From: Escherichia coli
Lineage (GTDB): Bacteria > Pseudomonadota > Gammaproteobacteria > Enterobacterales > Enterobacteriaceae
Strand: one strand, 5' to 3'
NCBI RefSeq assembly: GCF_013122565.1
Contig: NZ_CP053258.1
DNA length: 64,000 bases
Position 1 is the stretch's first letter. Each line of letters starts with the position of its first letter. Shown here piece by piece: positions 42,948-50,973 of the stretch. The notes under the pieces are model-generated. The model did not search any database. It worked only from the letters and a program-made list of their open reading frames with translations, and was not told the origin of the DNA. The position numbers and the translations under genes are program-made.

Positions 42948-45500
42948 TCAGAACAATTCCTGTGCCTCGCCATTATCGATAATGGTCGTTCCCACCTCGT
43001 GCACCGCCTGTTGTGTCGGCTGCGTACCTTCGATGAAATACTCTTCGCGGCTGTTGCCACCATTAGCTAACTGCCCGGTGCTGCGATCGATATTCACCGT
43101 CACAATACCCGGTGGCGGCGTCAGCGGTTGTTCCGGCACACCTTCAAGAACGACTTTCATATAAGCGTCCCATGCAGGCTGGGCACTCTTGGCACCGCCT
43201 TCGTAACCTGAGATCTGATCTTTAATCGCTCCGGAAGCCGTTGTATGACCGAGATTACGACGGTGATCATCAAAGCCAATCCAGACCGAGGTCACAACGC
43301 CCGGACCGTAACCCGAGAACCACGCATCTTTCGAACTGTTAGTGGTCCCGGTTTTCCCGCCGATATCGCGACGCTGCAAATCACGACCTGCACGCCAGCC
43401 GGTACCCTGCCAGCCTGGTTCACCAAAAATATTGGTGTTCAAAGCACTCTTAATCAGGAATGCCAGCGGAGTGTTGATGACGTGCGGTGCGTACTCCTGC
43501 GCGCCAGTCTTCGCCACTAACGCCTGATTTGCCTGCTCCAGCTGCGGCATTGGTACAGAAACATTCTGCTGCTCGCGGGAGATAGCGACATCTTCAACAT
43601 CGTTATTTTCCAGCACGTTCGATTTCTGCGTATCACCGTAAATCACTGGAATATCGCATTCCGGGCAGGCTACTTTCGGTTTCGCTTCGAAAATCACGCC
43701 ACCCTGATCGTTTTCAATTTTGCTGATAAACCACGGGTCCACCAGGAAGCCGCCGTTCGCCATGACCGCGTAGCCGCGCGCCACCTGCATTGGGGTGAAG
43801 GACGCTGAACCCAGCGCCAGCGATTCGGTGTGGACAATGTTTTGTGCCGGGAAGCCGAAGCGTTGCAGATATTCTGCAGCGTAGTCGACGCCCATCGCCC
43901 GCATTGCGCGTACCATCACCACGTTTTTCGACTGACCCAGCCCCTGACGTAAGCGAATTGGACCGGCATATTGTGGCGGCGAGTTCTTCGGCTGCCAGTC
44001 AGAACCGGCACCTGCATCCCAGCGGGAAATTGGCACATCGTTCAACATACTTGCCAGCGTCAGACCTTTATCCATCGCCGCGGTGTAGAGGAACGGTTTG
44101 ATGTTGGAACCCACCTGACGCAGTGCCTGGGTGGCGCGGTTAAACTTGCTCTGATTGAAATCAAAGCCACCGACCAGCGCCATAACGGCACCATTTTGCG
44201 GATTGATCGACACCAGCGCCGAGTTCACTTCCGGCACTTGTGCCAGCCACCATGCATCGCCGACCTGACGAACCCAGATTTGCTGTCCCGTTTGCAGAAC
44301 ATCGGTCACTTTACGCGGCGTCGGTCCCTGCTGAGTATCCGAACGGTAAGGACGCGCCCAGCGAACGCCGTCCATACTCAATGCGACAGTCGACCCGTCC
44401 GCCAGCATTGCCGTCGCTTCCTGAGGATTGGCGCTGGTGACTGCGGCAGGCAGCAGCGGACCATAGGTCGGCAGCGCCTTCAGCGTATCGGTAATCTTGT
44501 TGTTATCCCACGCCGACTCGCCCACTTTCCACAGCACATTTGCCGGGCCGCGATAGCCGTGGCGCATGTCGTAGTCCAGCACGTTATTACGTACCGCCTG
44601 CTGCGCGGCCTGCTGCACTTTGCGGGTGATGGTGGTGTAAATGCGATAACCGTCTTCATAGGCGCTTTCGCCATAACGGTTATACATCTCCTGGCGCACC
44701 ATTTCGCTCAGGTACGGCGCAGAGAAAGCAATCTCCGGCGCGTGATAGTTAGCGTTAATCGCCTCAGTGCGTGTCTGATCGAACTGTTGTTGGGTGATAT
44801 ACCCTTCATCCAGCATCCGCGACAGCACGACGTTACGCCGCGCGACGGCACGATCCATCGAGTAGAGCGGGTTGAAGGTGGAAGGCGCTTTCGGCAGCCC
44901 GGCTATCACCGCCATTTCGTTCAGCGTCAGTTGGTCGACCGTTTTTCCGAAATAGACTTGTGCCGCAGCACCGACACCATAGGCGCGGTAACCAAGGTAA
45001 ATCTTGTTCAGATAAAGCTCGAGGATCTCGTCTTTCGTCAGCAGCTGTTCAATGCGAATCGCGAGGAAGACTTCCTTAATCTTACGCATCAGCGTGCGTT
45101 CTGGACTGAGGAAGAAGTTTCTCGCCAGCTGCTGGGTAATGGTACTTGCCCCTTGTGACGCGTGACCGGAGAACAGCGCCACGCTTGCTGCACGGAAGAT
45201 CCCCACCGGGTCAACGCCGTGATGCTCGTAGAAGCGGCTGTCTTCTGTCGCGATAAAGGCTTTCACCATCTCCGGTGGGATTTGATCCAACGTAACCGGA
45301 ATACGACGTTTCTCACCGTATTGAGCAATCAGCTCGCCATCGGCGCTGTAAATCTGCATCGGAATTTGCAGGCGAACATCTTTTAATGTCGCCACATCCG
45401 GCAGTTGTGGCTCGATGTAGCGGTATAGGCCATAAATCGAGCCTGCTCCCAGCAGAATGCAACAGACTGCAAGGATCAAAAAATACTTTACGAACTTCAC
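42948..45500 (-). CDS. mrcA: penicillin-binding protein 1A
   Basis: 850 aa if the GTG start (VKFVKYFL...) is used; an upstream in-frame ATG would give 858 aa. Confidence 0.95.
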   Translation of the reverse strand: MKFVKYFLILAVCCILLGAGSIYGLYRYIEPQLPDVATLKDVRLQIPMQIYSADGELIAQYGEKRRIPVTLDQIPPEMVKAFIATEDSRFYEHHGVDPVGIFRAASVALFSGHASQGASTITQQLARNFFLSPERTLMRKIKEVFLAIRIEQLLTKDEILELYLNKIYLGYRAYGVGAAAQVYFGKTVDQLTLNEMAVIAGLPKAPSTFNPLYSMDRAVARRNVVLSRMLDEGYITQQQFDQTRTEAINANYHAPEIAFSAPYLSEMVRQEMYNRYGESAYEDGYRIYTTITRKVQQAAQQAVRNNVLDYDMRHGYRGPANVLWKVGESAWDNNKITDTLKALPTYGPLLPAAVTSANPQEATAMLADGSTVALSMDGVRWARPYRSDTQQGPTPRKVTDVLQTGQQIWVRQVGDAWWLAQVPEVNSALVSINPQNGAVMALVGGFDFNQSKFNRATQALRQVGSNIKPFLYTAAMDKGLTLASMLNDVPISRWDAGAGSDWQPKNSPPQYAGPIRLRQGLGQSKNVVMVRAMRAMGVDYAAEYLQRFGFPAQNIVHTESLALGSASFTPMQVARGYAVMANGGFLVDPWFISKIENDQGGVIFEAKPKVACPECDIPVIYGDTQKSNVLENNDVEDVAISREQQNVSVPMPQLEQANQALVAKTGAQEYAPHVINTPLAFLIKSALNTNIFGEPGWQGTGWRAGRDLQRRDIGGKTGTTNSSKDAWFSGYGPGVVTSVWIGFDDHRRNLGHTTASGAIKDQISGYEGGAKSAQPAWDAYMKVVLEGVPEQPLTPPPGIVTVNIDRSTGQLANGGNSREEYFIEGTQPTQQAVHEVGTTIIDNGEAQELF

Positions 45501-45619
45501 TGGAAATTTCCCATTTAGTTTCATTTGGGCAGTTTATAAACAAACGCGCGGTAGTATAAAGGCAAGCCAGACGCATTGATATACCCGTCAGAGTGACGGG
45601 TGATAAGGAGATCATCACA

Positions 45620-46399
45620 ATGGCATTTAAGATCTGGCAAATTGGTTTGCATTTACAACAGCAAGAAGCGGTAGCGGTTGCGATCGTGCGGGACGCAAAA
45701 GAATGCTTTTTGCAACGCTGGTGGCGGTTGCCGTTGGCGCACGACATTATCAAAGATGGGCGGATTGTTGATGCGCAGCGGCTGGCTAAAACGTTGTTAC
45801 CGTGGAGTCGCGAACTGCCGCAGCGCCATCACATCATGTTGGCGTTTCCCGCCAGTCGCACATTACAGCGGTCATTTCCGCGCCCGTCGATGTCCCTCGG
45901 TGAGCGGGAGCAAACGGCCTGGCTTTCCGGGACGATGGCCCGCGAGCTGGATATGGATCCGGACTCCCTGCGCTTCGATTACAGCGAAGACTCACTCAGT
46001 CCCGCCTATAACGTGACTGCCGCGCAAAGCAAAGAGCTGGCAACGCTGCTTACTCTGGCAGAAAGGTTGCGTGTTCATGTTAGTGCGATCACCCCGGATG
46101 CCAGTGCATTACAGCGATTCCTGCCTTTTTTACCTTCTCATCAGCAATGTCTGGCCTGGCGTGATAACGAACAGTGGCTGTGGGCGACGCGCTATCGCTG
46201 GGGGCGCAAACTGGCGGTGGGGATGACTAGCGCGAAGGAGCTGGCGGCAGCGTTATCCGTTGATCCCGAAAGCGTCGCGATATGTGGCGAAGGCGGATTT
46301 GATCCCTGGGAGGCCGTTTCTGTTCGTCAGCCGCCGTTACCGCCGCCAGGTGGAGACTTTGCCATCGCGCTGGGGCTGGCGCTTGGGAAGGCGTACTGA
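45620..46399 (+). CDS. hofM: PilM-like pilus assembly ATPase-fold protein HofM
   Basis: MAFKIWQIGL...; 259 aa. Confidence 0.9.
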   Translation: MAFKIWQIGLHLQQQEAVAVAIVRDAKECFLQRWWRLPLAHDIIKDGRIVDAQRLAKTLLPWSRELPQRHHIMLAFPASRTLQRSFPRPSMSLGEREQTAWLSGTMARELDMDPDSLRFDYSEDSLSPAYNVTAAQSKELATLLTLAERLRVHVSAITPDASALQRFLPFLPSHQQCLAWRDNEQWLWATRYRWGRKLAVGMTSAKELAAALSVDPESVAICGEGGFDPWEAVSVRQPPLPPPGGDFAIALGLALGKAY

Positions 46400-46938
46400 T
46401 GAACCCGCCAATTAATTTTTTGCCCTGGCGACAGCAACGCCGGACCGCTTTTCTTCGTTTCTGGTTGCTGATGTTCGTTGCGCCTCTGCTGCTGGCCGTC
46501 GGGATAACGCTAATACTGCGTCTGACAAGCAGCGCCGAAGCGCGCATAGACGCCGTTTTGCTTCAGGCGGAACAACAACTCGCCCGCAGCTTACAGATAA
46601 CGAAACCACGTTTGCTGGAGCAACAGCAGTTACGCGAACAGCGTTTGCAACGGCAGCGCCAGCGACAATTTACCCGCGACTGGCAATCTGAGCTGGAAGC
46701 ACTGGCGGCGCTTTTACCCGAGCACGCCTGGCTGACAACGATAAGCTGGCAGCAGGGAACGCTGGAGATCAAGGGGCTGACAACAAGCATTACCGCGTTA
46801 AACGCACTAGAAACGTCACTCCGCCAGGATGCTTCTTTTCATCTCAATCAGCGGGGGGCCACGCAGCAGGATGCGCAGGGACGCTGGCAATTTGAGTATC
46901 AGTTAACAAGGAAGGTTAGCGATGAACATGTTCTTTGA
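46399..46938 (+). CDS. hofN: PilN-like protein HofN
   Basis: 179 aa; N-terminal TM; start overlaps hofM stop. Confidence 0.9.
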   Translation: MNPPINFLPWRQQRRTAFLRFWLLMFVAPLLLAVGITLILRLTSSAEARIDAVLLQAEQQLARSLQITKPRLLEQQQLREQRLQRQRQRQFTRDWQSELEALAALLPEHAWLTTISWQQGTLEIKGLTTSITALNALETSLRQDASFHLNQRGATQQDAQGRWQFEYQLTRKVSDEHVL

Positions 46939-47362
46939 CTGGTGGTTCGCCACATCACCCCGCCTCCGCCAGTTTTGCTGGGCATTCTGGTTGCTGATGT
47001 TAGTTACGCTCATTTTTCTGTCATCGACACACCATGAAGAGCGCGACGCATTAATTCGACTACGGGCAAGTCATCACCAGCAGTGGGCCGCACTGTATCG
47101 CCTGGTAGACACCACTCCCTTCAGCGAGGAAAAAACGCTGCCCTTTTCGCCTCTGGATTTTCAGTTATCCGGCGCGCAACTGGTTTCCTGGCATCCATCC
47201 GCGCAGGGAGGTGAGTTGGCGTTGAAAACGCTGTGGGAAGCAGTGCCGTCGGCATTTACACGGCTGGCAGAGCGCAACGTCAGCGTGAGCCGTTTTTCGT
47301 TAAGCGTGGAAGGTGATGATCTTTTGTTCACGCTACAACTGGAGACGCCGCATGAGGGTTAA
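46922..47362 (+). CDS. hofO: PilO-like protein HofO
   Basis: 146 aa. Confidence 0.88.
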   Translation: MNMFFDWWFATSPRLRQFCWAFWLLMLVTLIFLSSTHHEERDALIRLRASHHQQWAALYRLVDTTPFSEEKTLPFSPLDFQLSGAQLVSWHPSAQGGELALKTLWEAVPSAFTRLAERNVSVSRFSLSVEGDDLLFTLQLETPHEG

Positions 47363-47756
47363 ACGCTGGTTGTTGGCAGGTATTGCATTGTGCCTTTTAA
47401 CCGGTATGCGTGACCCTTTTAAACCGCCGGAAGATCTATGCCGGATTAGCGAACTTAGCCAGTGGCGCTATCAGGGGATGGTAGGGCGAGGCGAGCGCAT
47501 CATCGGTGTAATAAAAGACGGGCAAAAGAAATGGCGACGGGTGCAGCAAAACGATGTGCTGGAAAACGGCTGGACAATTTTACAGCTGACGCCAGACGTA
47601 CTAACGCTGGGTACCGGGACAAACTGCGAACCGCCACAATGGTTGTGGCAACGGCAAGGAGATACAAATGAAGCAATGGATAGCCGCACTACTGTTGATG
47701 CTGATACCCGGCGTACAGGCGGCAAAGCCGCAAAAAGTGACGCTGATGGTGGATGA
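47352..47756 (+). CDS. hofP: PilP-like lipoprotein HofP
   Basis: MRVKRWLLAGIALCLLTGMRD lipobox-like; 134 aa. Confidence 0.85.
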   Translation: MRVKRWLLAGIALCLLTGMRDPFKPPEDLCRISELSQWRYQGMVGRGERIIGVIKDGQKKWRRVQQNDVLENGWTILQLTPDVLTLGTGTNCEPPQWLWQRQGDTNEAMDSRTTVDADTRRTGGKAAKSDADGG

Positions 47757-48906
47757 CGTTCCGGTAGCTCAGGTGTTGCAGGCGCTGGCTGAACAGGAGA
47801 AGTTGAACCTGGTCGTGTCGCCAGACGTCAGCGGTACGGTGTCGTTACATCTAACAGATGTTCCCTGGAAGCAGGCACTACAAACTGTAGTGAAAAGCGC
47901 CGGACTGATAACGCGGCAGGAAGGCAACATTCTCTCAGTGCATTCCATTGCCTGGCAGAATAACAATATCGCCCGCCAGGAGGCGGAGCAGGCGCGGGCG
48001 CAGGCAAATCTGCCGCTGGAAAATCGCAGTATAACCCTGCAATACGCCGACGCGGGAGAACTGGCGAAAGCGGGGGAGAAGCTACTGAGTGCCAAAGGGA
48101 GTATGACCGTCGATAAACGCACCAATCGCCTTTTGCTACGAGATAACAAAACGGCGTTAAGCGCGCTTGAACAGTGGGTAGCGCAAATGGATCTGCCGGT
48201 CGGGCAGGTTGAGCTGTCGGCGCATATTGTCACCATTAATGAAAAAAGTTTGCGTGAGTTAGGCGTGAAATGGACGCTGGCCGATGCGCAACACGCTGGT
48301 GGCGTTGGGCAAGTCACCACGCTTGGTAGCGACCTCTCCGTAGCGACGGCGACAACGCATGTCGGTTTTAACATTGGGCGCATCAACGGACGTTTGCTGG
48401 ATCTTGAGCTTTCCGCGCTCGAACAAAAACAGCAGCTGGATATTATCGCCAGTCCGCGTCTGCTGGCCTCACATCTTCAGCCTGCCAGCATTAAACAGGG
48501 GAGCGAAATTCCATATCAGGTTTCCAGCGGGGAAAGTGGCGCGACGTCGGTGGAATTTAAAGAGGCCGTCCTGGGGATGGAGGTCACGCCCACGGTGTTA
48601 CAAAAAGGTCGCATCCGGCTGAAATTACACATCAGCCAGAACGTTCCGGGGCAGGTGCTACAGCAGGCCGATGGCGAAGTGCTGGCGATTGATAAGCAGG
48701 AGATCGAAACGCAGGTCGAGGTCAAAAGCGGAGAAACGTTGGCGCTGGGCGGCATTTTTACCCGTAAAAATAAATCGGGTCAGGATAGCGTACCGTTGCT
48801 TGGCGACATTCCCTGGTTCGGGCAATTATTTCGTCATGACGGAAAAGAAGATGAACGACGCGAGTTAGTGGTGTTTATCACGCCACGACTGGTTTCCAGT
48901 GAGTAA
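47668..48906 (+). CDS. hofQ: secretin HofQ
   Basis: 412 aa; signal peptide; secretin C-domain. Confidence 0.93.
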   Translation: MKQWIAALLLMLIPGVQAAKPQKVTLMVDDVPVAQVLQALAEQEKLNLVVSPDVSGTVSLHLTDVPWKQALQTVVKSAGLITRQEGNILSVHSIAWQNNNIARQEAEQARAQANLPLENRSITLQYADAGELAKAGEKLLSAKGSMTVDKRTNRLLLRDNKTALSALEQWVAQMDLPVGQVELSAHIVTINEKSLRELGVKWTLADAQHAGGVGQVTTLGSDLSVATATTHVGFNIGRINGRLLDLELSALEQKQQLDIIASPRLLASHLQPASIKQGSEIPYQVSSGESGATSVEFKEAVLGMEVTPTVLQKGRIRLKLHISQNVPGQVLQQADGEVLAIDKQEIETQVEVKSGETLALGGIFTRKNKSGQDSVPLLGDIPWFGQLFRHDGKEDERRELVVFITPRLVSSE

Positions 48907-49306
48907 ACAGCCGTAAAAGCGGTAATGTTTTTATGCTGAACGTGTTTCATCTATTTGACGCGCGCAGGTATTTAGCATACAAGGAGTACCGATTTGAGAG
49001 TTGGTGCTCTTCGCTGCCTGCGTTCCATGATGATGATTTATCATTCAGGCGGCATTTTGCTGTCTTTTTTACGCTAATCTTACCCGGTGATTTATCGCCA
49101 GAGCGGTGGTAGCAAGGCAGCGCGCTTGCAGCGACCAGATATGCAGAGGGATGGGTGATTTATTCAGTTGCCAAACCCGCTGGAGTATTGAGATAATTTT
49201 CAGTCTGACTCTCGCAATATCTTATGAGGTTTCAGTTCATGTCCTGCGGCGCTCTCTGAGCGAAGCGGGTTTATCATTAACGAATAGTCTTAGTAGTACC
49301 GAAAAA

Positions 49307-49828
49307 ATGGCAGAGAAACGCAATATCTTTCTGGTTGGGCCTATGGGTGCCGGAAAAAGCACTATTGGGCGCCAGTTAGCTCAACAACTCAATATGGAAT
49401 TTTACGATTCCGATCAAGAGATTGAGAAACGAACCGGAGCTGATGTGGGCTGGGTTTTCGATTTAGAAGGCGAAGAAGGCTTCCGCGATCGCGAAGAAAA
49501 GGTCATCAATGAGTTGACCGAGAAACAGGGTATTGTGCTGGCTACTGGCGGCGGCTCTGTGAAATCCCGTGAAACGCGTAACCGTCTTTCCGCTCGTGGC
49601 GTTGTCGTTTATCTTGAAACGACGATCGAAAAGCAACTTGCACGCACGCAGCGTGATAAAAAACGCCCGTTGCTGCATGTTGAAACACCGCCGCGTGAAG
49701 TTCTGGAAGCGTTGGCCAATGAACGCAATCCGCTGTATGAAGAGATTGCCGACGTGACCATTCGTACTGATGATCAAAGCGCTAAAGTGGTCGCTAACCA
49801 GATTATTCACATGCTGGAAAGCAACTAA
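49307..49828 (+). CDS. aroK: shikimate kinase I
   Basis: [19 protein letters not shown]; 173 aa (longest ORF overshoots upstream). Confidence 0.96.
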
Positions 49829-49884
49829 TTCTGGCTTTATATACACTCGTCTGCGGGTACAGTAATTAAGGTGGATGTCGCGTT

Positions 49885-50973
49885 ATGGAGAGGATTGTCG
49901 TTACTCTCGGGGAACGTAGTTACCCAATTACCATCGCATCTGGTTTGTTTAATGAACCAGCTTCATTCTTACCGCTGAAATCGGGCGAGCAGGTCATGTT
50001 GGTCACCAACGAAACCCTGGCTCCTCTGTATCTCGATAAGGTCCGCGGCGTACTTGAACAGGCGGGTGTTAACGTCGATAGCGTTATCCTCCCTGACGGC
50101 GAGCAGTATAAAAGCCTGGCTGTACTCGATACCGTCTTTACGGCGTTGTTACAAAAGCCGCATGGTCGCGATACTACGCTGGTGGCGCTTGGCGGCGGCG
50201 TAGTGGGCGATCTGACCGGCTTCGCGGCGGCGAGTTATCAGCGCGGTGTCCGTTTCATTCAAGTCCCGACGACATTACTGTCGCAGGTCGATTCCTCCGT
50301 TGGCGGCAAAACTGCGGTCAACCATCCCCTCGGTAAAAACATGATTGGCGCGTTCTACCAGCCTGCTTCAGTGGTGGTAGATCTCGACTGTCTGAAAACG
50401 CTTCCCCCGCGTGAGTTAGCGTCGGGGCTGGCAGAAGTCATCAAATACGGCATTATTCTTGACGGTGCGTTTTTTAACTGGCTGGAAGAGAATCTGGATG
50501 CGTTGTTGCGTCTGGACGGTCCGGCAATGGCGTACTGTATTCGCCGTTGTTGTGAACTGAAGGCAGAAGTTGTCGCCGCCGACGAGCGCGAAACCGGGTT
50601 ACGTGCTTTACTGAATCTGGGACACACCTTTGGTCATGCCATTGAAGCTGAAATGGGGTATGGCAATTGGTTACATGGTGAAGCGGTCGCTGCGGGTATG
50701 GTGATGGCGGCGCGGACGTCGGAACGTCTCGGGCAGTTTAGTTCTGCCGAAACGCAGCGTATTATAACCCTGCTCACGCGGGCTGGGTTACCGGTCAATG
50801 GACCGCGCGAAATGTCCGCGCAGGCGTATTTACCGCATATGCTGCGTGACAAGAAAGTCCTTGCGGGAGAGATGCGCTTAATTCTTCCGTTGGCAATTGG
50901 TAAGAGTGAAGTTCGCAGCGGCGTTTCGCACGAGCTTGTTCTTAACGCCATTGCCGATTGTCAATCAGCGTAA
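49885..50973 (+). CDS. aroB: 3-dehydroquinate synthase
   Basis: 362 aa. Confidence 0.97.

What the first reader, a model, noticed from the sequence alone, without database searches (positions are those of the whole stretch)
45593..48906. hofMNOPQ (PilMNOPQ-like) operon with successive overlapping reading frames
Five genes with start/stop overlaps (hofM/N share a base, hofN/O overlap by 17 bp, hofO/P by 11 bp, hofP/Q by 89 bp) encode a type IV pilus / DNA-uptake-like secretin system that is cryptic in laboratory E. coli. The extensive overlaps imply translational coupling; the long hofP/hofQ overlap makes the hofP stop or the hofQ start assignment worth re-examining.
Basis: partly seen in the sequence, partly recalled or inferred. 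Interest (0 to 1): 0.3.

Follow-up and report, generated by a model that had tools for sequence, protein, structure and literature searches.

The report
E. coli hofMNOPQ operon, overlapping genes
This is the already annotated E. coli hofMNOPQ DNA-uptake/pilus operon; its unusual 89-base hofP/hofQ overlap is real and conserved, and appears to be mostly a harmless by-product of hofP reading on through the signal-peptide codons of hofQ.

Summary
The window is E. coli chromosome. One correction: hofM starts at ATG 45620, not at GTG 45593.

I re-examined the hofP/hofQ overlap, and both ends hold. The hofQ ATG at 47668 is the first possible start in its frame. It has an AAGGAG Shine-Dalgarno (SD) sequence 6 nt upstream and opens a typical signal peptide that is conserved in 76 Enterobacteriaceae species. 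hofP has no stop before that ATG in any species.

- Overlap length ranges from 4 to 140 nt; 89 nt is the most common value.
- Reshuffling synonymous hofQ codons reproduces the observed length. The hofP frame is almost stop-free across signal-peptide codons.
- hofP ends at the first conserved acidic pair (V-D-D) of mature HofQ.
- The overlap-encoded HofP tail (residues 106-134) is predicted disordered and is variable. It imposes no detectable constraint on hofQ synonymous sites.
- One hint of selection: the Asp codon that supplies the stop is GAT in 93% of species.

Coupling by termination-reinitiation is plausible at the three short junctions but unlikely at -89. hofQ probably initiates independently.

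Verdict: a known system of low interest, though it is a genuine exception to the rule that co-directional overlaps over 60 bp are annotation errors.

The parts
45344..45469 (+). Upstream regulatory region of hofM, lying inside the 5' coding part of the divergent mrcA gene. It is the fragment used for CRP band-shifts and is said to carry two predicted CRP-S sites.
   Evidence: The primers yrfDF and yrfDR of PMC1635313 map exactly to 45344-45363 and 45448-45469 in the sequence read. The paper reports weak CRP binding and 16-fold induction by Sxy. I did not locate the sites myself: there is no match to TGCGA-N6-TCGCA within 2 mismatches in this region.
45605..45610 (+). Shine-Dalgarno AAGGAG for hofM, 9 nt before ATG 45620.
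   Evidence: Sequence read.
45620..46399 (+). hofM (259 aa), a divergent PilM-like first gene.
   Evidence: RefSeq CDS. tblastn alignments start at residue 1 with ATG in the other species. Family hits are weak only: TIGR01175 pilM at 16 bits and T2SSL at 17 bits. The syntenic gene in L086 hits PilM_2.
46399..46938 (+). hofN (179 aa), PilN family. Its start shares one base with the hofM stop (TGATG).
   Evidence: PF05137 PilN at 39.3 bits against a cut-off of 22.8.
46922..47362 (+). hofO (146 aa). It overlaps hofN by 17 nt, with the SD sequence AAGGAAGG at 46908-46915.
   Evidence: PF25319 HofO at 89.7 bits.
47352..47756 (+). hofP (134 aa), overlapping hofO by 11 nt, with GGAG at 47341-47344. 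The protein has a signal peptide, a PilP-like beta-sandwich core (about residues 30-104, with invariant C30 and C92) and a disordered tail (106-134).
   Evidence: PF10748 HofP at 266.7 bits over the full length. Alignment A2 gives the invariant residues. AlphaFold2 gives pLDDT 85-91 for residues 31-100 and below 50 for 108-134. The top Foldseek PDB hits are PilP and the GspC HR domain.
47656..47661 (+). Shine-Dalgarno AAGGAG for hofQ, 6 nt before the ATG. It is encoded by the conserved HofP motif W-x-R-[QE]-G.
   Evidence: Sequence. Conserved as AAGGAG or GAAGGA in the 76 species. Unpaired in the predicted mRNA fold.
47668..47756 (+). The 89-nt hofP/hofQ overlap. In the hofQ frame it encodes HofQ residues 1-30 (signal peptide 1-18 and the start of the mature protein). 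In the frame one base earlier it encodes HofP residues 106-134 and the TGA stop (gaT GAc of HofQ D29-D30).
47668..48906 (+). hofQ (412 aa), an outer-membrane secretin. The signal peptide is MKQWIAALLLMLIPGVQA (47668-47721).
   Evidence: NCBIfam HofQ NF007851 at 855 bits, aligned 1-412 to 1-412; TIGR02515 PilQ at 449 bits; Pfam STN, Secretin_N and Secretin. The best solved relatives are PilQ secretins.
49047..49065 (+). Terminator-like hairpin followed by a T run, 141 nt after the hofQ stop. This is a possible operon end, supported by a weak consensus match only.
   Evidence: The number of such sites is no higher than in shuffled sequence.

Best explanation
hofMNOPQ encodes the inner-membrane/periplasmic alignment proteins (HofM, N, O, P) and the outer-membrane secretin (HofQ) of the E. 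coli type IV pilus / DNA-uptake machine. It is transcribed from a Sxy- and CRP-cAMP-dependent promoter region that lies inside the divergent mrcA gene. Each gene has its own SD sequence inside the preceding gene.

The 89-nt hofP/hofQ overlap is real. The last conserved residues of the folded HofP core (W-x-R-[QE]-G) are encoded by the very bases that form the hofQ SD sequence, and no stop follows them. Ribosomes translating hofP therefore read on across the hofQ start. The hofP frame begins one base before the hofQ frame, so a stop can arise only where a T-ending hofQ codon precedes a codon starting AA, AG or GA. Such places are almost absent in the hydrophobic signal-peptide codons. hofP therefore runs until the first charged residues of mature HofQ (V-D-D, gaT GAc).

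The resulting 29-residue HofP tail is disordered, and its sequence is dictated by hofQ. hofQ most likely initiates on its own at its strong SD sequence rather than by reinitiation of hofP ribosomes.

Shown here: the coordinates, the conservation, the stop-codon logic, the disorder prediction and the absence of extra synonymous constraint. Inferred: independent initiation of hofQ and lack of function of the tail.
For: Identity and function:
- Domain and family hits, secretin relatives in the PDB and the PilP-like fold of HofP.
- Sxy/CRP dependence (PMC1635313).
- hofQ is required for sxy-dependent DNA uptake (PMC3330819).
- The native hofM-hofQ fragment was included in the 12-gene pilus-assembly plasmid built to produce PpdD pili when expressed from Ptac (bioRxiv 10.1101/856302).

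Overlap:
- ATG 47668 is the first start codon after a stop in its frame, with AAGGAG 6 nt upstream.
- Signal-peptide-like N-termini and the SD sequence are conserved in all species examined.
- hofP has no stop before the hofQ start in any of 76-77 loci. Overlap lengths (number of loci): 4 (2), 38 (3), 59-62 (5), 77-98 (64), 122 (2), 140 (1).
- Three more distant HofP-family loci overlap by 62, 74 and 98 nt, ending at D-K or V-S just after the signal peptide.
- Synonymous reshuffling of hofQ gives a median overlap equal to the observed one in most species. For E. coli, P(simulated >= 89) = 0.63.
- The tail has higher column entropy than the core (2.27 against 1.73 bits). Its few conserved positions coincide with the conserved HofQ residues M1, A18, V24-D29.
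- Third-position entropy of conserved four-fold hofQ codons in the overlap (1.26-1.69) lies within the rest of the gene (1.57 +/- 0.34).
- The tail has pLDDT below 50.
- Tail-less forms (103-107 aa, ATGA junction) and short-tailed forms (117 aa) exist.
- The SD sequence is not sequestered: fold z-score -1.57.
- Reinitiation collapses within tens of nucleotides (PMC10666635).
Against: - The Asp codon that supplies the hofP stop is GAT in 93% of species, against 41-83% (mean 65%) at ten other conserved Asp columns of hofQ. 23 of 27 genus-level groups are all GAT. This hints that ending hofP at this spot is selected. However, T is also kept in 16 of 19 loci where hofP already stops earlier, and the species are not independent.
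- Observed overlaps lean slightly longer than simulated ones: mean P(sim >= obs) is 0.54, against the 0.645 expected.
- Only 2 of 77 loci have acquired a conventional ATGA junction, although there is room for one. This is compatible with a benefit of the overlap.
- No expression data were available, so independent initiation of hofQ is an inference.
Confidence: 0.72

Rival explanations
1. The long overlap is a selected device. Either the HofP tail has a role (for instance contacting HofQ or the peptidoglycan), or making hofP ribosomes cross the hofQ start and terminate at a fixed point just inside mature HofQ sets the HofP:HofQ ratio, by occluding or opening the hofQ start site.
For: - GAT at HofQ D29 in 93% of species, the highest of 11 conserved Asp columns.
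- The overlap persists across Enterobacteriaceae and in more distant HofP-family loci.
- Only 2 of 77 loci have a 4-nt junction.
- Canonical PilP-PilQ pairs are not overlapped (median +13 nt, quartiles -1 and +29, n = 281; PMC10666635 Table S4), so the HofP arrangement is a derived, stable state.
Against: - The tail sequence is highly variable and predicted disordered.
- Tail length varies from 0 to about 46 residues among species.
- hofQ synonymous sites in the overlap are not more conserved than elsewhere.
- The overlap length is reproduced by codon reshuffling.
- No stable structure hides the hofQ SD sequence.
Confidence: 0.2
2. The overlap is an annotation or sequence artefact: hofQ really starts downstream of the hofP stop, or hofP really ends before hofQ.
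For: A survey of 715 co-directional overlaps over 60 bp found none to be real (PMC2478687). Most of those were mispredicted starts of the downstream gene.
Against: - hofP/hofQ was not in that survey's tables.
- The lengths of both proteins agree with their orthologues, which is that survey's own criterion.
- A start after 47756 would remove the signal peptide that a secretin needs for export.
- The N-terminal 30 residues, the SD sequence and the ATG or GTG are conserved.
- The NCBIfam HofQ model aligns from residue 1.
- The hofP frame contains no stop before 47754 in this window, in two RefSeq genomes, or in a 134-aa protein cluster with 2466 member sequences.
Confidence: 0.03

Closest known systems
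PilMNOPQ of type IVa pilus systems (Pseudomonas aeruginosa, Neisseria, Myxococcus)
   Same: Five co-directional genes in the same order. The secretin has STN/N0, Secretin_N and secretin domains (TIGR02515 at 449 bits). There is a PilN domain. The HofP core has the PilP/GspC HR-domain fold as its best structural match. The operon is also divergent from the PBP1a gene (mrcA/ponA).
   Different: - HofM, HofO and HofP do not reach the PilM/PilO/PilP sequence-model thresholds.
- HofP is short and has no conserved lipobox cysteine.
- HofQ lacks the long N-terminal AMIN region of PilQ: 412 aa against 571-901 aa for the solved PilQ chains.
- Canonical PilP-PilQ pairs are typically separated by about +13 nt, not overlapped by about 89 nt.
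Haemophilus influenzae comABCDE competence operon
   Same: The literature treats it as orthologous. Both are part of the Sxy/CRP-S regulon and both are needed for DNA uptake (PMC1635313, PMC3330819).
   Different: E. coli shows only very low Sxy-dependent uptake, and no natural inducing condition is known. Enterobacteriaceae promoters are predicted to have two CRP-S sites rather than one. The comD/comE junction was not examined here.
holD/rimI, reported as the longest real co-directional gene overlap (32-56 nt) in Enterobacteria (PMC2478687)
   Same: A co-directional overlap conserved across enterobacterial genera, with both protein lengths consistent among orthologues.
   Different: hofP/hofQ is longer (mode 89 nt, up to 140 nt). 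The overlapped part is a signal peptide in one frame and a disordered tail in the other. Its length varies between genera.

Membership tests
Type IVa pilus / competence PilMNOPQ-type operon | Five co-directional genes in the order M-N-O-P-secretin | tested here: met
   The same order is found in 76 Enterobacteriaceae loci and in L083, L085 and L086.
Type IVa pilus / competence PilMNOPQ-type operon | Secretin with an N0/STN domain, an N1 (Secretin_N) domain and a C-terminal secretin domain, plus a Sec signal peptide | tested here: met
   PF07660 at 36.7 bits, PF03958 at 46 bits, PF00263 at 160 bits; TIGR02515 at 449 bits against a cut-off of 284; NF007851 HofQ at 855 bits against 598. The signal peptide was read from the sequence and is conserved.
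Type IVa pilus / competence PilMNOPQ-type operon | PilN-family protein | tested here: met
   PF05137 at 39.3 bits against a cut-off of 22.8.
Type IVa pilus / competence PilMNOPQ-type operon | PilM (actin-like) protein recognisable by the family models | tested here: inconclusive
   TIGR01175 at 16.3 bits against a cut-off of 133; PF05134 T2SSL at 17.2 bits against 25.5. The syntenic first gene of L086 carries a precomputed PilM_2 hit.
PilP | Sequence match to the PilP family model | tested here: not met
   No PilP Pfam hit at E <= 0.01; only PF10748 HofP matches. No PDB sequence hit at E <= 1.
PilP | C-terminal beta-sandwich HR domain | tested here: met
   The AlphaFold2 core has pLDDT 85-91. 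Nine of the first 11 Foldseek PDB hits are PilP or GspC/LspC HR domains; the best E-value is 5.4e-4 and the TM-score on the target is up to 0.71. The match is weak but consistent.
PilP | Lipoprotein signal (lipobox with an invariant Cys) | tested here: not met
   No conserved Cys precedes the RDPF motif. C13 of E. coli HofP is not conserved, and the invariant cysteines are C30 and C92. Distant family members have A-x-A type cleavage sites.
HofP / DUF2531 (PF10748) | Full-length match above the gathering score | tested here: met
   266.7 bits against a cut-off of 24; residues 3-134 match profile positions 1-132 of 132.
Sxy/CRP-S competence regulon | CRP-S site(s) upstream, with Sxy- and CRP-cAMP-dependent induction | not testable with these tools
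   Reported in PMC1635313. I mapped only the band-shift primers to 45344-45469. An idealised TGCGA-N6-TCGCA search with up to 2 mismatches found nothing in that region, which fits the sites being weak.
Gene pairs coupled by termination-reinitiation | Stop and start within a few nucleotides (-4, -1, or a very short distance) | tested here: not met
   This feature is met for hofM/N (-1, TGATG). hofN/O (-17) and hofO/P (-11) are borderline. It is not met for hofP/Q (-89). The distance dependence comes from PMC10666635.
Genuine long (>60 nt) co-directional overlaps (criterion of PMC2478687) | Both genes have the same length as their orthologues, and the overlap is conserved | tested here: met
   HofP is 131-138 aa and HofQ 409-415 aa in most species. 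The overlap is 77-98 nt in 64 of 77 loci.

The most novel reading that the evidence does not exclude
The hofP/hofQ overlap is maintained by selection as a translational device. hofP ribosomes must run over the hofQ initiation site and stop at a codon held in place (GAT at HofQ D29 in 93% of species) at the first residues of mature HofQ. This would tune how much secretin is made per HofP, or provide a flexible HofP tail that acts on the secretin.
Probability: 0.15. Interest if true: 0.4.

Novelty: already known. Interest (0 to 1): 0.14.

Why it matters
The operon, its function and the overlap coordinates are already in the databases and in published tables, so this is not a discovery.

The small added value is a documented exception. 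hofP/hofQ is a co-directional overlap of about 89 nt that passes the orthologue-length test, contrary to the rule of thumb that such overlaps over 60 bp are annotation errors.

There is also a simple explanation that may apply elsewhere. The reading frame that starts one base before the frame of a signal peptide is nearly stop-free. An upstream gene that lacks its own stop will therefore read through the signal-peptide codons and end at the first charged residues of the mature protein. This could help annotation pipelines avoid 'correcting' such cases.

Tried and rejected
- CRP-S site search. The pattern TGCGA-N6-TCGCA with up to 2 mismatches gave 30 hits in the window, fewer than in shuffles (48), and none at 45300-45620. 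I did not locate the published sites independently.
- mRNA structure hiding the hofQ SD sequence. The fold of 47610-47730 has z = -1.57 and the SD sequence is unpaired, so there is no support for coupling through structure.
- Rfam scan of 45000-50000. The only hit is a 26-nt, 14.7-bit match (E = 0.39) to asponA, far below its gathering score of 113. I treat it as chance.
- Promoter and terminator scans. Counts are no higher than in shuffled sequence.
- Word-indexed protein searches with HofP and with the HofP alignment reached only Enterobacteriaceae. The exhaustive profile search was needed to reach distant members.
- The PMC2478687 supplement has no entry for b3391/b3392 or hofQ/yrfA, so that paper's verdict on this pair is unknown.
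- Contrasting GAT use at D29 between loci where hofP reaches D29 (58 of 61) and loci where it stops earlier (16 of 19) showed no clear difference. The stop-retention signal therefore stays only suggestive.
- Programmed frameshifting or a HofP-HofQ fusion. The only 'fusion' proteins in the databases (P0043, P0060, P0086) look like frameshifted or deleted sequences. I did not pursue this.
Full report
**What the window is.** The region 45000-49500 matches 5425 of 5426 complete E. coli genomes at >=95% identity, always on the chromosome apart from one extra place. Two near-identical RefSeq chromosomes annotate it as mrcA (opposite strand), hofM, hofN, hofO, hofP, hofQ, aroK and aroB. Converting coordinates (window = locus + 43499) gives:

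| gene | window coordinates |
|---|---|
| hofM | 45620-46399 |
| hofN | 46399-46938 |
| hofO | 46922-47362 |
| hofP | 47352-47756 |
| hofQ | 47668-48906 |

**Check of the observation.** The ORF list and direct reading of the junctions confirm the overlaps:

- hofM/N share one base (tacTGATGaac).
- hofN/O overlap by 17 nt.
- hofO/P overlap by 11 nt.
- hofP/Q overlap by 89 nt.

There is one correction. 45593 is the GTG of the longest ORF. The annotated start is ATG 45620, which has AAGGAG at 45605-45610 and is where the alignments to all other species begin.

Each downstream gene has an SD sequence inside the preceding gene:

| gene | SD sequence | position |
|---|---|---|
| hofN | GGGAAGG | 46385-46391 |
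| hofO | AAGGAAGG | 46908-46915 |
| hofP | GGAG | 47341-47344 |
| hofQ | AAGGAG | 47656-47661 |

**What the genes are.**

- HofQ matches the NCBIfam HofQ model end to end (855 bits) and the PilQ model (449 bits). It has STN, Secretin_N and Secretin domains. Its closest solved relatives are PilQ secretins.
- HofN has a PilN domain.
- HofO and HofP match their own Pfam families.
- HofM gives only sub-threshold PilM/GspL-like hits.
- HofP has no sequence relative in the PDB. An AlphaFold2 model built on 65 orthologues has a confident beta-sandwich core (pLDDT 85-91 for residues 31-100). Nine of its first 11 Foldseek PDB matches are PilP or GspC/LspC HR domains.
- Unlike canonical PilP, HofP has no conserved lipobox cysteine. 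The invariant residues are R20, P22, F23, C30, G42, W61, R63, C92 and P94.

**Function and regulation, from the literature.**

- CRP binds weakly to a fragment whose primers map to window 45344-45469, inside mrcA. Sxy induces yrfD (hofM) 16-fold, in a CRP- and cAMP-dependent way. The operon is otherwise poorly transcribed or undetectable (PMC1635313).
- hofQ is needed for sxy-dependent DNA uptake (PMC3330819).
- hofQ mRNA rises when DNA is supplied (PMC9273947).
- The native hofM-hofQ fragment was one of the components of the 12-gene pilus-assembly plasmid built to produce PpdD pili from a tac promoter (bioRxiv 10.1101/856302).

**Re-examination of the 89-nt overlap.**

*The hofQ start.* ATG 47668 is the first start codon after a stop in its frame. 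It has a consensus SD sequence 6 nt upstream. It opens MKQWIAALLLMLIPGVQA|AKPQ, a typical Sec signal peptide. In 76 other Enterobacteriaceae species fetched by a genome scan, the homologous start codon (ATG, or GTG in some Enterobacter), the SD sequence and a signal-peptide-like N-terminus are all present. A start downstream of the hofP stop would remove the signal peptide that a secretin needs.

*The hofP stop.* No species has a stop in the hofP frame before the hofQ start. The last conserved residues of the HofP core (W97, W99, R101, G103) are encoded by the bases that form the hofQ SD sequence (cAA GGA Ga = Q G D/E).

*Overlap lengths across 77 loci.*

| overlap (nt) | 4 | 38 | 59 | 62 | 77 | 80 | 83 | 86 | 89 | 92 | 98 | 122 | 140 |
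|---|---|---|---|---|---|---|---|---|---|---|---|---|---|
| loci | 2 | 3 | 1 | 4 | 1 | 5 | 3 | 7 | 36 | 10 | 2 | 2 | 1 |

*More distant family members.* These were found by an exhaustive profile search and located on contigs. They overlap their secretin genes by 62, 74 and 98 nt. One of them (HofQ 52% identical to E. coli) keeps the mrcA-hofMNOPQ-aroKB synteny.

*Contrast with canonical systems.* Canonical PilP/PilQ COG pairs in 1,695 genomes have a median spacing of +13 nt (quartiles -1 and +29, n = 281; PMC10666635 Table S4). The long overlap is therefore a derived trait of the HofP family.

**Why the overlap is this long.** The hofP frame starts one base before the hofQ frame. A hofP stop therefore needs a T-ending hofQ codon followed by a codon beginning AA, AG or GA (Lys, Asn, Ser, Arg, Asp or Glu).

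- In the E. coli signal peptide region only three places qualify: A19-K20, V28-D29 and D29-D30. The actual stop is gaT GAc at D29-D30.
- Reshuffling synonymous hofQ codons with local codon usage gives a median simulated overlap equal to the observed one in most species. For E. coli the median is 89 and P(sim >= 89) = 0.63.
- In 58 loci the stop sits exactly at the conserved V-D-[DE] motif that begins the mature N0 domain.
- In the distant loci it sits at D-K or V-S just after the signal peptide.

**Is the tail constrained?**

- HofP residues 106-134 have pLDDT below 50.
- Their mean column entropy is 2.27 bits, against 1.73 bits for the core.
- Their few conserved positions coincide with the conserved HofQ residues M1, A18, V24-D29 in the other frame.
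- Third positions of conserved four-fold hofQ codons inside the overlap are as variable (1.26-1.69 bits) as in the rest of the gene (1.57 +/- 0.34).
- Tail-less HofP (103-107 aa, ATGA junction) and short-tailed HofP (117 aa in Phytobacter and Kosakonia) occur naturally.

All of this fits a tail that is a passive read-through product.

There are two observations against this. First, D29 is GAT in 93% of species, against 41-83% at ten other conserved Asp columns, and 23 of 27 genus-level groups are all GAT. Second, observed overlaps lean slightly longer than simulated ones. Both are weakened by shared ancestry. The first is also weakened because T is kept in 16 of 19 loci where hofP already stops earlier.

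**Translation.**

- The predicted mRNA fold around the hofQ start is not unusually stable (z = -1.57) and leaves the SD sequence unpaired.
- Experiments on three E. coli gene pairs show that reinitiation falls by 80-100% at 38 nt distance (PMC10666635).
- I therefore infer that termination-reinitiation coupling is plausible for hofM/N (-1) and possibly for hofO/P and hofN/O.
- I also infer that hofQ is initiated independently at its strong SD sequence, while hofP ribosomes pass over it. This is an inference, and no expression data were available.

**Context and verdict.** Pallejà et al. 2008 (PMC2478687) examined 715 co-directional overlaps over 60 bp and judged none real. They named holD/rimI (32-56 nt) as the longest genuine case. 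hofP/hofQ is not in their tables. By their own criterion (gene lengths consistent with orthologues), hofP/hofQ is genuine.

The overlap is best explained as a tolerated by-product of gene packing next to a signal peptide. A small residual possibility remains that the stop position or the overlap is selected.

Noticed in passing
L005:3255-4000 (Escherichia albertii NBRC 107761): hofO and hofP carry premature stops (69 aa and 33 aa instead of 146 and 134), while hofM, hofN and hofQ are intact. The operon seems to be decaying in this strain.
   Followed up: partly
window 45344-45500 (+ strand, antisense to the mrcA 5' end): The published CRP-S/Sxy promoter region of hofM lies inside the first ~50 codons of the divergent mrcA gene, so a hofM transcript would be antisense to the mrcA 5' end. 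Rfam gave a 26-nt sub-threshold hit (14.7 bits, E = 0.39) here to asponA ('anti ponA RNA'). It is probably chance, but ponA is an alternative name for mrcA, so the family's name points to the same gene pairing.
   Followed up: no
L025, L027, L028, L030, L031, L041, L042, L046, L047, L051, L060, L069 (Enterobacter) and L038 (Lelliottia), hofN/hofO junction: In the Enterobacter group HofN is 160-166 aa instead of 179, and hofN/hofO are separated by 3 nt instead of overlapping by 17 nt. That junction is therefore less fixed than hofO/hofP, which overlaps by 11 nt in 63 of 76 loci.
   Followed up: partly
window 47352-47420 (HofP N-terminus) and alignment A2: HofP-family proteins have an ordinary signal peptide followed by a conserved R-[DN]-P-F motif and two invariant cysteines (C30, C92), but no conserved lipobox. 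Unlike canonical PilP, they are probably not lipoproteins.
   Followed up: partly
window 48907-49306: The 400-nt hofQ-aroK spacer has a terminator-like hairpin plus T run at 49047-49065. It also has a good sigma-70-like promoter match at 49168-49197 (10 of 12, with an extended -10 TG), presumably an aroK promoter.
   Followed up: no
L050:1211-1214 and L052:3552-3555: Two metagenome-assembled genomes have a one-base frame difference, so that hofP ends in a conventional ATGA junction with hofQ (HofP 103-105 aa). Independent short forms (P0134, P0135) exist in the protein library, so these are probably real tail-less variants.
   Followed up: partly
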